Virus record (IMG/VR): IMGVR_UViG_2700989162_000004
Coordinates: 1 to 22,618 of that record
DNA from: a virus
Taxonomy: Duplodnaviria > Heunggongvirae > Uroviricota > Caudoviricetes
Strand: one strand, 5' to 3'
DNA length: 22,618 nt
The first letter of the stretch is position 1. Every line of letters starts with the position of its first letter. A program made the position numbers and the translations under genes. Shown piece after piece: positions 8,023 to 8,857 of this stretch. The notes below the pieces were generated by a model. It was not told the DNA's origin. It saw nothing but the letters and a program-made list of their open reading frames with translations, and ran no database searches.

Positions 8023-8045
8023 GAGACCACTCATTGAATGGTCTC
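8023..8045. promoter_or_regulatory. Inverted repeat in the intergenic region between the T5orf172 moron and the cassette
   Basis: GAGACCA-(9 nt)-TGGTCTC palindrome with no T-tract after it; could be a protein-binding site or RNA hairpin. Confidence 0.3.
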
Positions 8046-8201
8046 TGCAATAACCGATGTCTTTCCATCAGTCCGCCACCACAAAGAATCTTTTTTTGCC
8101 ATAAGGCAGGAGGTTCATCTTTCAGTGGCTGCCAGTGTTATTTCCCCACTTACTGGCTTGGGTTGTTTCGCTGTACTGCCGTTAATTAGTGAGTCCGGGG
8201 A

Positions 8202-8687
8202 TTATTTCAGTTCGTTACCAGGCATTTCTTTTAGCTCTTTCAAATGACAACGATTGAGGCTAAACCACTCCCCGTGCGACCTATAGTTGTAATATTTTTG
8301 GTGCAATTTGGTTTCAAGCTCTCTATCGGCCGGAATCTTTGCAATTAGATTTAGCTTCCCACCACTCATGCGAGATATCTCTGAAATTCGTTTATTAACC
8401 CTGCGACTAAACCCTATTTTTGTTAGCCCACTATCTTCAGCATGCAGAACGTACACATATGATTTTTGCGAAGCACTGGGTGCGACTTTGTTGTAATTAA
8501 TCATGTCAAACATAAAGCCTTGCTTTAGCAAAGTTTCAAAAAAGATAGAATTAACACACCCATTCCTTCTCAGCTCTGCACTTAGCTTGTCAATTTCCTC
8601 TATGATGTCGCCAGACCCCTTTCCACTTATAAGAAAATCTTGGTACATGCGACCAATTCTTGAGGTAATTTCAACAAAGTTATTCAT
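8202..8687 (-). CDS. T5orf172 (GIY-YIG-like) domain protein; moron
   Basis: 161-aa ORF; C-terminal 90 aa carry YVYVL...KIGFS...R...GEWF, which I recognise as the T5orf172/MUG113 domain; N-terminal 65 aa unknown; gene and flanks are visibly AT-rich. Confidence 0.7.
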   Translation of the reverse strand: MNNFVEITSRIGRMYQDFLISGKGSGDIIEEIDKLSAELRRNGCVNSIFFETLLKQGFMFDMINYNKVAPSASQKSYVYVLHAEDSGLTKIGFSRRVNKRISEISRMSGGKLNLIAKIPADRELETKLHQKYYNYRSHGEWFSLNRCHLKELKEMPGNELK

Positions 8688-8833
8688 AGCGTTTACCTTT
8701 TAGAAAGATGAGCCTGTTCGCACAGAAAAGCCGCCCCCGAGATGGTCGCCACCATATACGGCAATTCTCAGGCTCAGCTTTCTGAAAGACTCGGGATTGT
8801 TACGCGCTGCGATGCGCGGTTTACTGCAGATGT

Positions 8834-8857
8834 AAAAAAGCCCCGCAAATGCGAGGC
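8834..8857 (-). terminator. Intrinsic terminator downstream of the lysis cassette
   Basis: Minus strand GCCTCGC-ATTT-GCGGGGC followed by TTTTTT. Confidence 0.6.

What the first reader, a model, noticed from the sequence alone, without database searches (positions are those of the whole stretch)
8023..8857. AT-rich moron encoding a T5orf172 (GIY-YIG-like) domain protein between lysis and packaging genes
The 161-aa protein has a C-terminal YVYVL...KIGFS...GEWF signature characteristic of T5orf172/MUG113 domains fused to an uncharacterised 65-aa N-terminus. The gene and its flanks are visibly more AT-rich than the neighbouring phage genes. It is preceded on the transcribed strand by an intrinsic terminator (8834-8857) and followed by a palindrome (8023-8045), the classic moron layout. 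T5orf172 domains are nuclease-like and turn up in accessory loci, so this is a candidate defence or exclusion gene expressed from the prophage.
Basis: partly seen in the sequence, partly recalled or inferred. Interest (0 to 1): 0.6.

Follow-up and report, generated by a model that had tools for sequence, protein, structure and literature searches.

The report
Swapped-in phage nuclease gene behind leader
This is a real but already catalogued small phage nuclease gene, dropped as a foreign AT-rich reading frame into a well-known variable slot of a P22-like prophage; the sequence suggests it is kept silent in the prophage rather than switched on, because a terminator and a conserved RNA hairpin that hides its ribosome-binding site lie in front of it.

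Summary
ORF 8202-8687 (-) encodes a 161-aa protein with significant MUG113 and T5orf172 Pfam hits. Its C-terminal domain models as a GIY-YIG nuclease fold with all family-invariant residues. The ORF has 38.9% GC against 46-53% around it, and a good intrinsic terminator lies upstream.

The gene is not new. It is 100% identical to Salmonella phage epsilon34 gp68 and g341c gp64, which RefSeq names 'GIY-YIG nuclease family protein'.

The 'classic moron' reading fails on three points:
- No promoter was found.
- The palindrome lies in backbone DNA shared with phages that lack the gene.
- Only the ORF is foreign, from the ATG to the stop codon.

The ORF sits in the post-lysis 'rha slot' of lambdoid late operons, replacing rha or kilA-N.

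The unexpected result is a roughly 95-nt hairpin leader (8789-8696) between terminator and ATG. It pairs an anti-SD (Shine-Dalgarno) sequence with the SD, shows strong covariation and is absent from Rfam. It also precedes rha, kilA-N and HNH-type cargo genes in many lambdoid phages.

Best reading: a late-expressed, translationally throttled endonuclease, probably selfish or competitive. A defence role expressed from the prophage is unsupported but not excluded.

The parts
8202..8687 (-). Cargo ORF of 161 aa, a T5orf172/MUG113 (GIY-YIG superfamily) protein. It is the only compositionally foreign piece (GC 0.389).
   Evidence: ORF. Pfam. phrog_4284 full length, E=1.4e-75. 100% identical to epsilon34 gp68, g341c gp64 and NM-3. 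GC. dN/dS 0.12-0.30.
8469..8687 (-). N-terminal domain, residues 1-73: a bundle of three long helices (3-21, 25-41, 47-73). No recognised DNA-binding fold. Conserved across the small two-domain family.
8226..8459 (-). C-terminal nuclease-like domain, residues 77-154, with topology beta-beta-alpha-beta-alpha-beta-alpha. Family-invariant residues: Y79, K90-I91-G92, R100, E125, L128, H129, E140-W141-F142.
8696..8789 (-). Conserved extended RNA hairpin in the 5' leader, helices P1 to P5. P1 pairs UCUUU (8789-8785) with AAAGG (8700-8696), which is the Shine-Dalgarno sequence 8 nt before the AUG at 8687.
   Evidence: MFE -40 kcal/mol, z=-3.0. Every homologue folds the same way. Covariation: 93% of cells paired against 36-51% for slid controls, 22 of 33 pairs compensatory, 0 of 500 shuffles reach the score. 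RNAalifold recovers it independently, with 21 of 29 pairs compensatory. The CM scores 133.7 bits on the gene strand and 23 on the other. Not in Rfam.
8803..8818 (-). Small hairpin CGCGC-ATCGCA-GCGCG between the terminator and the main leader hairpin. It varies to GCGCC-ATGCCC-GGCGC in relatives.
   Evidence: Sequences; MFE. The compensatory change was seen by eye only and was not tested statistically.
8828..8858 (-). Intrinsic terminator downstream of the lysis cassette (stem-loop 8858..8839 plus T-run). It belongs to the backbone, not to the cargo.
   Evidence: Annotated in epsilon34, and at the equivalent place in Emek, ES18 and HK106. Conserved in all family loci.
7995..8204 (-). Backbone segment downstream of the cargo. 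Homology to rha-carrying phages resumes exactly at the stop codon TAA (8204-8202), in the sequence TAATCCCCGGACTCAC, which encodes the last 7 codons of Rha in another frame.
   Evidence: blastn borders. Exact junctions. Palindrome.
8892..9044 (-). 50-aa ORF overlapping the end of Rz. It is the homologue of epsilon34 gp67 and Sf6 gp65 and is part of the backbone upstream of the terminator.
   Evidence: ORF. Annotation.

Best explanation
The locus is a plug-in cargo gene in the post-lysis 'rha slot' of a P22-like (Lederbergvirus) prophage.

Shown:
- A foreign, AT-rich ORF of exactly ATG-to-stop length replaces rha or kilA-N between two conserved backbone pieces.
- It encodes a two-domain protein: an N-terminal three-helix bundle and a C-terminal T5orf172/MUG113 domain. 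That domain models as a GIY-YIG nuclease fold and keeps every family-invariant residue, including the Arg (R100) and Glu (E125) that align with the catalytic pair of GIY-YIG enzymes.
- Both domains are under purifying selection.
- The gene is co-oriented with the Q-dependent late operon. It lies behind an intrinsic terminator and a covariation-supported hairpin of about 95 nt that base-pairs the Shine-Dalgarno sequence.

Inferred:
- In the lysogen it is silent. Stray transcripts stop at the terminator and any that pass cannot be translated well.
- After induction, Q-modified polymerase reads through, and the hairpin limits or gates translation. Relief could come from RNase III cleavage of the long stem or from a bound factor. 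The result is a small, late dose of a potentially toxic DNA endonuclease.
- Its most likely role is selfish or competitive: a homing-endonuclease-like nuclease that cuts related lambdoid genomes, or other co-resident elements, that lack it. This is how T5orf172 nucleases act in phage ICP1.
For: - Pfam hits above the cut-offs.
- GIY-YIG fold of the isolated domain.
- Invariant Y79, K90-I91-G92, R100, E125, H129 and E140-W141-F142 across 18 homologues down to 24% identity.
- The T5orf172 nuclease Odn needs the equivalent Glu (PMC8263062).
- dN/dS of 0.12-0.30 in both domains.
- The same slot, after the spanin gene and before terS, holds roughly 60%-identical homologues in phages with unrelated holin, endolysin, spanin and terminase types, and a 31%-identical one in HK106.
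- Junctions fall exactly at the ATG and the stop codon. An identical protein is found behind a different leader variant in L022.
- Terminator present, no promoter found.
- Leader structure and SD pairing.
- T5orf172 genes are putative homing endonucleases that cluster near terminase genes and at recombination boundaries (PMC10448857).
- RBS-sequestering hairpins and nearby terminators are the known way T4 restricts homing-endonuclease expression (PMC2988022).
- Sporadic distribution: 56 of 5426 complete E. coli genomes.
Against: - No nuclease activity, target or expression data exist for this protein or any close relative.
- It lacks the Zn-finger or other DNA-binding modules found in 87% of T5orf172 homing endonucleases. 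Its long-helix N-domain looks more like an oligomerisation or partner-binding module.
- Alternative alleles of the site carry other genes (rha, kilA-N), not an empty target site.
- The leader predates the cargo, so it is not evidence for a homing-endonuclease lifestyle in itself.
- The slot-mates are DNA-binding regulators, not nucleases.
- The promoter scan is a simple consensus scan and cannot exclude a weak or non-canonical promoter. The neighbouring P22 pid promoter, for example, has an eroded -10 (PMC8835761).
Confidence: 0.45

Rival explanations
1. The gene is a moron expressed from the repressed prophage, and its nuclease defends the lysogen against, or excludes, superinfecting phages.
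For: - AT-rich, sporadic accessory gene.
- Nuclease fold.
- Weak PADLOC hit to candidate PDC-S57, E=4e-4.
- Weak promoters can be missed; P22 pid, next door, has one.
Against: - No promoter found, and a terminator lies directly upstream.
- The SD is occluded by a conserved hairpin.
- The gene sits in and is co-oriented with the late operon.
- The regulatory framework is shared with rha and kilA-N. rha was not among the genes I saw named as highly expressed in BTP1 lysogens (Table S5 not checked).
- No match to any established defence-system model. The PADLOC hit covers only the generic nuclease domain.
Confidence: 0.15
2. The protein is a regulator rather than a working nuclease. In this view it is a functional analogue of its slot-mates Rha and KilA-N, for example an antirepressor-like or DNA-binding factor. 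The precedent is CapR, a domesticated T5orf172 homing-endonuclease relative that acts as a repressor in the PLE satellite.
For: - Same slot, same leader and same first codons (ATG AAY) as the rha and kilA-N genes.
- T5orf172 domains are historically grouped and fused with Bro-N, KilA-N and Rha modules (mentions the Bro-N association).
- The CapR precedent.
Against: All motif residues expected for catalysis are invariant down to 24% identity, which is unexpected for a domesticated, inactive domain. No recognisable DNA-binding domain is present.
Confidence: 0.15
3. It is a structure-specific (SLX1-like) endonuclease that trims branched replication or recombination intermediates just before packaging. 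This would be a late helper function placed next to the terminase genes.
Confidence: 0.1

Closest known systems
Salmonella phage epsilon34 gp68, g341c gp64 and phage NM-3 (RefSeq 'GIY-YIG nuclease family protein')
   Same: 100% amino-acid identity over all 161 residues. Same neighbours (Rz, gp67-like ORF, terminator, then DUF2560). 97.9% DNA identity over 7710-9498.
   Different: Nothing in the gene itself. The window is an E. coli-type prophage context with different genes beyond DUF2560. No function has been published: the epsilon34 genome paper does not discuss the gene.
T5orf172 homing endonucleases and the nuclease Odn (gp88) of Vibrio phage ICP1
   Same: C-terminal T5orf172 domain joined to an N-terminal specificity or accessory domain. 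Located near the terminase genes and at a boundary of genetic exchange. Catalytic Arg and Glu conserved.
   Different: No CapR, DUF723 or DUF4397 Zn-finger and no RepA_N-type DNA-binding domain. Much smaller at 161 aa. Only distant sequence similarity, at the domain level. Carried by a temperate lambdoid phage rather than a lytic one.
P22/BTP1/Sf101 Rha and HK620/Emek/Stx-phage KilA-N proteins, the usual occupants of this slot
   Same: Identical genomic position, identical upstream terminator and structured leader, and the same ATG-AAY start. In the closest relatives the ORFs are exchanged base-precisely.
   Different: Unrelated protein folds (DNA-binding regulators against a nuclease-type domain). 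No sequence similarity in the coding region.
RBS-sequestering hairpins that restrict T4 homing endonucleases (I-TevI, I-TevII, I-TevIII, segB, and mobE of Aeh1)
   Same: A stable hairpin pairs the Shine-Dalgarno sequence of a nuclease gene carried on a long polycistronic phage transcript, with terminators nearby (PMC2988022).
   Different: In T4 a late promoter inside the hairpin frees the RBS. No internal promoter is seen here, and lambdoid late transcription comes from a single Q-dependent promoter. This leader is a conserved family of about 95 nt shared with non-nuclease cargo.

Membership tests
Pfam T5orf172 (PF10544) / MUG113 (PF13455) | Profile HMM match above the curated gathering score | tested here: met
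   MUG113 50.1 bits against a cut-off of 22.3. T5orf172 39.2 bits against a cut-off of 20. Residues 77-154.
GIY-YIG nuclease superfamily | The beta-beta-alpha-beta-alpha core fold | tested here: met
GIY-YIG nuclease superfamily | Catalytic residues: Tyr of the first strand, Arg of helix 1, and the metal-binding Glu | tested here: inconclusive
   Y79, R100 and E125 are invariant in 18 homologues and lie in the expected secondary-structure elements. The second-motif Tyr is replaced by K90. I did not make a residue-by-residue superposition on a solved enzyme.
GIY-YIG nuclease superfamily | Metal-dependent DNA cleavage | not testable with these tools
   Needs purified protein.
Homing endonuclease gene (free-standing) | Presence or absence polymorphism at a fixed site among close relatives | tested here: inconclusive
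   The gene is sporadic at one fixed site, but the alternative alleles carry rha or kilA-N rather than an intact empty target.
Homing endonuclease gene (free-standing) | A sequence-reading DNA-binding module joined to the nuclease | tested here: not met
   No Pfam DNA-binding domain. The N-domain is a bundle of three long helices that matches only generic bundles. 87% of T5orf172 homing endonucleases carry Zn-finger modules.
Homing endonuclease gene (free-standing) | Cleavage of the cognate allele that lacks the gene, and biased inheritance in crosses | not testable with these tools
   Needs nuclease assays and mixed infections.
Moron (Hendrix/Juhala sense) | An extra gene with deviant base composition between genes that are adjacent in relatives | tested here: inconclusive
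   Composition is deviant. However, the gene replaces other cargo rather than being an insertion between adjacent genes.
Moron (Hendrix/Juhala sense) | Its own promoter upstream and terminator downstream (an autonomous transcription unit) | tested here: not met
   No promoter-like site on the gene strand. The terminator is upstream, not downstream, and nothing terminator-like on the gene strand follows the stop codon. Both flanks are backbone DNA.
Moron (Hendrix/Juhala sense) | Expression from the repressed prophage | not testable with these tools
   Indirect evidence only: rha, the occupant of this slot in BTP1, was not among the genes I saw named as highly expressed in lysogens (Table S5 not checked).
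Known anti-phage defence systems (PADLOC-DB v2) | Match to a defence-protein model | tested here: not met
   Only PDC-S57 at E=4e-4 (18 bits, nuclease core only) and PDC-M64B at E=0.034.
Rfam RNA families (for the leader) | Covariance-model match | tested here: not met
   No hit at gathering score. At E up to 10 there is nothing over 8682-8794; the nearby weak hits are driven by the terminator.

The most novel reading that the evidence does not exclude
The novel element is the leader, not the nuclease gene. It would be an undescribed family of structured 5'-leader RNAs: about 95 nt, five helices, with an anti-SD paired to the SD at its base and conserved unpaired nucleotides. This leader would define a plug-in expression socket in lambdoid late operons. 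Potentially toxic cargo ORFs (Rha, KilA-N, T5orf172 nucleases, a Zn-loop HNH-type endonuclease) are exchanged into it base-precisely from AUG to stop. In this reading the RNA is a regulated gate, responding to RNase III, a protein or some other signal, rather than a passive hairpin.
Probability: 0.35. Interest if true: 0.6.

Novelty: new member of a known kind. Interest (0 to 1): 0.4.

Why it matters
The gene itself adds little. It is an already deposited GIY-YIG/T5orf172 gene of unknown function, and the evidence moves it away from 'prophage-expressed defence gene' towards 'late, tightly throttled nuclease'.

The context has wider use. It shows how lambdoid phages swap accessory genes: whole ORFs are exchanged between a fixed terminator-plus-leader on one side and a fixed short sequence at the stop codon on the other.

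The shared leader is a covariation-supported RNA structure absent from Rfam. It occurs in P22, ES18, HK620, HK106 and Stx-converting phages. It suggests why rha and kilA-type genes can be carried despite their toxicity. It also gives a concrete handle, through leader mutants and rnc hosts, for studying control of late-operon accessory genes, including those of Stx phages.

It also implies that the annotated P22/BTP1 rha start codon lies inside the hairpin and is probably wrong.

Tried and rejected
- **Sequence search against PDB.** It gave 'PPR protein' hits at E=3e-6. These come from one helical hairpin of the query matched about 8 times to designer repeat arrays, at roughly 5 bits each, so I rejected them as artefact.
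- **Profile search against PDB.** Only a marginal hit to a UPF0213 GIY-YIG protein, E=0.14.
- **Leader as part of the cassette.** A first blastn against Sf6, BTP1 and Emek found no leader similarity, which suggested the leader belonged to the cassette. The covariance model overturned this by finding the leader in BTP1 and Emek.
- **RNAalifold on the raw MAFFT alignment.** It gave a poor, partly different structure because divergent rows were out of register. It was replaced by a CM-guided alignment.
- **IHF site in the leader.** This was a possible link to the Rha/IHF phenotype. No site was found, and the pattern is not enriched in the window.
- **Internal promoter that would free the SD, as in T4.** None found by scan or by eye.
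- **Partner or immunity gene downstream.** The small ORFs after the gene in L005 and L006 are related to each other but are absent from the window.
- **N-domain as a stand-alone phage protein.** tblastn found only the identical genes.
- **Literature.** The Gifsy defence paper was irrelevant. Henthorn and Friedman 1995 on rha is not held in the library.
- **dN/dS.** Synonymous sites are saturated for most pairs, so only some comparisons are usable.

Full report
**1. What is at the coordinates**

The window is part of a P22-like (Lederbergvirus) prophage read on the minus strand. The gene order is:
- Q (10711-11229);
- tRNA-Asn and tRNA-Thr (10492-10647);
- holin, endolysin, and Rz with Rz1 (10249-9032);
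- a 50-aa ORF equivalent to epsilon34 gp67;
- the ORF in question (8687-8202);
- a DUF2560 gene (7953-7711);
- a 95-aa ORF and an HslV-like ORF;
- the Sf6-type small terminase (6915-6490) and the large terminase.

The 161-aa ORF is real. It matches Pfam MUG113 (E=4.2e-13) and T5orf172 (E=1.1e-9), both well above their curated cut-offs, over residues 77-154. It matches PHROG 4284 end to end.

The ORF has 38.9% GC (GC3 39.5%), while its neighbours have 46-53%. Only 2% of equally long windows are as AT-rich.

A textbook intrinsic terminator (8858-8839 plus a T-run) lies upstream on the gene strand.

**2. The gene is already in the databases**

The protein is 100% identical to gp68 of Salmonella phage epsilon34, gp64 of g341c and a protein of phage NM-3. 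RefSeq names it 'GIY-YIG nuclease family protein'. The epsilon34 record even annotates the same terminator.

The full locus occurs in 56 of 5426 complete E. coli genomes and in more than 25 IMG/VR contigs. The epsilon34 genome paper does not discuss the gene. I found no functional study.

**3. The protein**

AlphaFold (pLDDT 85.5) gives an N-terminal bundle of three long helices (residues 3-73) and a C-terminal beta-beta-alpha-beta-alpha-beta-alpha domain.

Across 18 homologues down to 24% identity the invariant residues are Y79, K90-I91-G92, R100, E125, L128, H129 and E140-W141-F142. They include the Arg and Glu that are catalytic in GIY-YIG enzymes. The only T5orf172 nuclease tested biochemically, ICP1 Odn, loses activity when the equivalent Glu is changed.

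A search of 1.84 billion representative proteins finds 5717 relatives of the C-domain but only about a dozen representatives with the two-domain architecture.

Where synonymous sites are not saturated, dN/dS is 0.12-0.30 in both domains. The protein is therefore maintained by selection.

The N-domain has no recognisable DNA-binding fold. An apparent PPR match is a repeat-inflated artefact.

**4. The slot**

Homologues at roughly 60% identity always lie directly after the spanin gene and before the small terminase. This holds in phages whose holins, endolysins, spanins and terminases belong to different families. A 31%-identical homologue occupies the same place in the HK97-like phage HK106.

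In other P22-like phages the same place holds rha (P22, BTP1, Sf101) or a kilA-N gene (HK620, Emek).

Base-level comparison with Sf101 shows where homology stops and starts. It runs through the terminator and leader up to ATGAA. It resumes exactly at the stop codon, in TAATCCCCGGACTCAC, which encodes the last seven codons of Rha in another frame. Only the ORF is foreign.

BTP1 and Sf6, which lack the gene, carry it whole; Emek's homology stops at 8041, so it keeps only part of it. The palindrome has no T-run and sits beside a second variable joint:
- Sf6 gene 66 and Emek orf53 are inserted at about 8055;
- pid of P22/BTP1 is inserted at 7967/7995.

It is not the 3' end of a moron.

**5. The leader, the unexpected part**

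The 150 nt between terminator and ATG are 50% GC and better conserved than the coding sequence. By eye from alignment A1, the window and L005 appear nearly identical in the leader, although their proteins are about 62% identical.

Each homologue independently folds into the same extended hairpin (z=-2 to -4.3). Its base pairs (C/U)CUUU with AAAGG, the Shine-Dalgarno sequence 8 nt before the AUG.

I built a covariance model from six close sequences. It found the element in front of every family member. It also found it in front of:
- rha in BTP1/P22, Sf101, ES18 and Hafnia phage Meifeng;
- kilA-N in Emek, HK620 and Stx2 phage 1717;
- an annotated Zn-loop 'homing endonuclease' in Klebsiella phage RothC, which has two copies.

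It was not found before Sf6 gene 66 or the Huey cargo, even with filters off. blastn finds the two main sequence variants in 146 and 75 phage records.

On the model-guided alignment of 23 distinct sequences:
- 93% of cells form standard pairs, against 36-51% when partners are slid;
- 22 of 33 pairs show compensatory double changes;
- the covariation score is 0.516, against at most 0.123 for slid controls and 0.206 for shuffles (0 of 500 shuffles reach the observed value).

This alignment is fitted to the model, which favours the structure. However, RNAalifold predicts the same helices on its own, with 21 of 29 pairs compensatory, and the single-sequence folds agree.

Frequent G-U pairs, and 134 bits on the gene strand against 23 bits on the other, assign the RNA to the gene strand.

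Rfam has no such family, and I found no description in the literature I could search. The key rha paper of 1995 is not held, so prior description cannot be excluded.

**6. What this means for expression**

No sigma-70-like promoter is detected on the gene strand between 7400 and 9500. The gene lies inside and is co-oriented with the Q-dependent late operon.

The sequence therefore argues for silence in the lysogen and for late, limited expression after induction. RNA-seq of BTP1 lysogens points the same way. The paper reports five highly expressed prophage genes (TPM>100). The text I read names bstA, pid, gtrA and gtrC as accessory genes with this pattern, and rha, the occupant of this slot, was not among the genes I saw named (I did not check Table S5).

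T4 uses RBS-sequestering hairpins plus terminators to restrict its homing endonucleases, so the logic of throttling a toxic nuclease has a precedent. Here, though, the leader is older than the cargo and serves non-nuclease genes too.

How the block is relieved is unknown. The long, nearly continuous stem is a plausible RNase III substrate, and the conserved unpaired nucleotides hint at a bound factor. Both points are inference. An IHF site was looked for and not found.

**7. Function**

The committed reading is a late-made GIY-YIG-type endonuclease acting on DNA during lytic growth. It is most likely selfish or competitive, in the manner of the T5orf172 homing endonucleases and Odn of ICP1, which cluster near terminase genes and at recombination boundaries.

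The weak points are:
- the missing DNA-binding module;
- the absence of empty-site alleles;
- the complete lack of experiments.

The rivals, none excluded, are:
- a non-catalytic regulator analogous to Rha, KilA-N or CapR;
- an SLX1-like debranching nuclease that helps packaging.

**8. Verdict**

The 'classic moron, prophage-expressed defence gene' interpretation is only partly supported.

The gene is a known, annotated, uncharacterised member of a known family. Interest in the finding as stated is modest.

The shared structured leader and the base-precise ORF swapping are the parts worth following up.

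Noticed in passing
window 8696-8789 (-); also L003 1808-1919, L004 1268-1385, L097 2138-2248, L098 1206-1320, L101 2501-2618, L102 2506-2618, L103 2497-2607: A conserved hairpin leader of about 95 nt, with anti-SD paired to SD and strong covariation, that is not in Rfam. It precedes T5orf172, rha and kilA-N genes after the lysis cassette in many lambdoid phages, including P22, ES18, HK620, HK106 and Stx2 phages.
   Followed up: yes
L100 (Klebsiella phage RothC) 2496-2606 and 4601-4700: One phage carries two copies of the leader. 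One lies between the tRNA genes and the holin, in front of an annotated Zn-loop 'homing endonuclease'. The other is in the usual post-lysis position. The element therefore travels with cargo to other late-operon positions.
   Followed up: partly
L003 (BTP1; the P22 rha leader is near-identical) 1808-1919 against annotated rha 1277-1882: The model places the rha start codon at L003 1813-1811. The annotated start (1882, giving 201 aa) lies inside the leader hairpin. Sf101 annotates a 180-aa Rha, consistent with the shorter form. The P22/BTP1 rha (orf201) start is probably mis-annotated.
   Followed up: partly
window 7967-8055: A second variable joint lies next to the cargo slot. pid of P22/BTP1 is inserted between the equivalents of 7967 and 7995. 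Sf6 gene 66 and Emek orf53 are inserted at about 8055. The window carries none of them; the epsilon34 annotators mark 8018-8101 as a remnant of ST64T orf118.
   Followed up: partly
window 6921-7409 (-) and 7421-7708 (-): Between DUF2560 and the small terminase lie a 162-aa ORF matching PHROG 1040 ('peptidase HslV family', E=6.6e-35, no Pfam hit) and a 95-aa ORF (phrog_11049). epsilon34 has different genes here (gp70, gp71), so this is another mosaic spot.
   Followed up: no
window 10492-10647 (-): tRNA-Thr(TGT) and tRNA-Asn(GTT) lie between Q and the holin, at the start of the late operon, as in Sf6 and BTP1.
   Followed up: no
window about 18200-18700: This is the lowest-GC stretch of the window (0.36), lower than the ORF studied here. 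It was not examined.
   Followed up: no
proteins P0014, P0005 and P0004: Metagenomic variants in which part of this protein is fused to other sequence. P0014 joins YbcO-like and Rz N-terminal parts to the last 41 residues. P0005 carries a DUF2560 domain. P0004 has a frameshifted tail. They look like deletion derivatives or assembly artefacts of the same locus.
   Followed up: no
L005 6705-6914 and L006 6855-7058: Small ORFs (69 and 67 aa, 34% identical to each other) follow the T5orf172 homologue in two divergent phages but are absent from the window. They probably belong to the phage backbone and are not a partner gene.
   Followed up: partly
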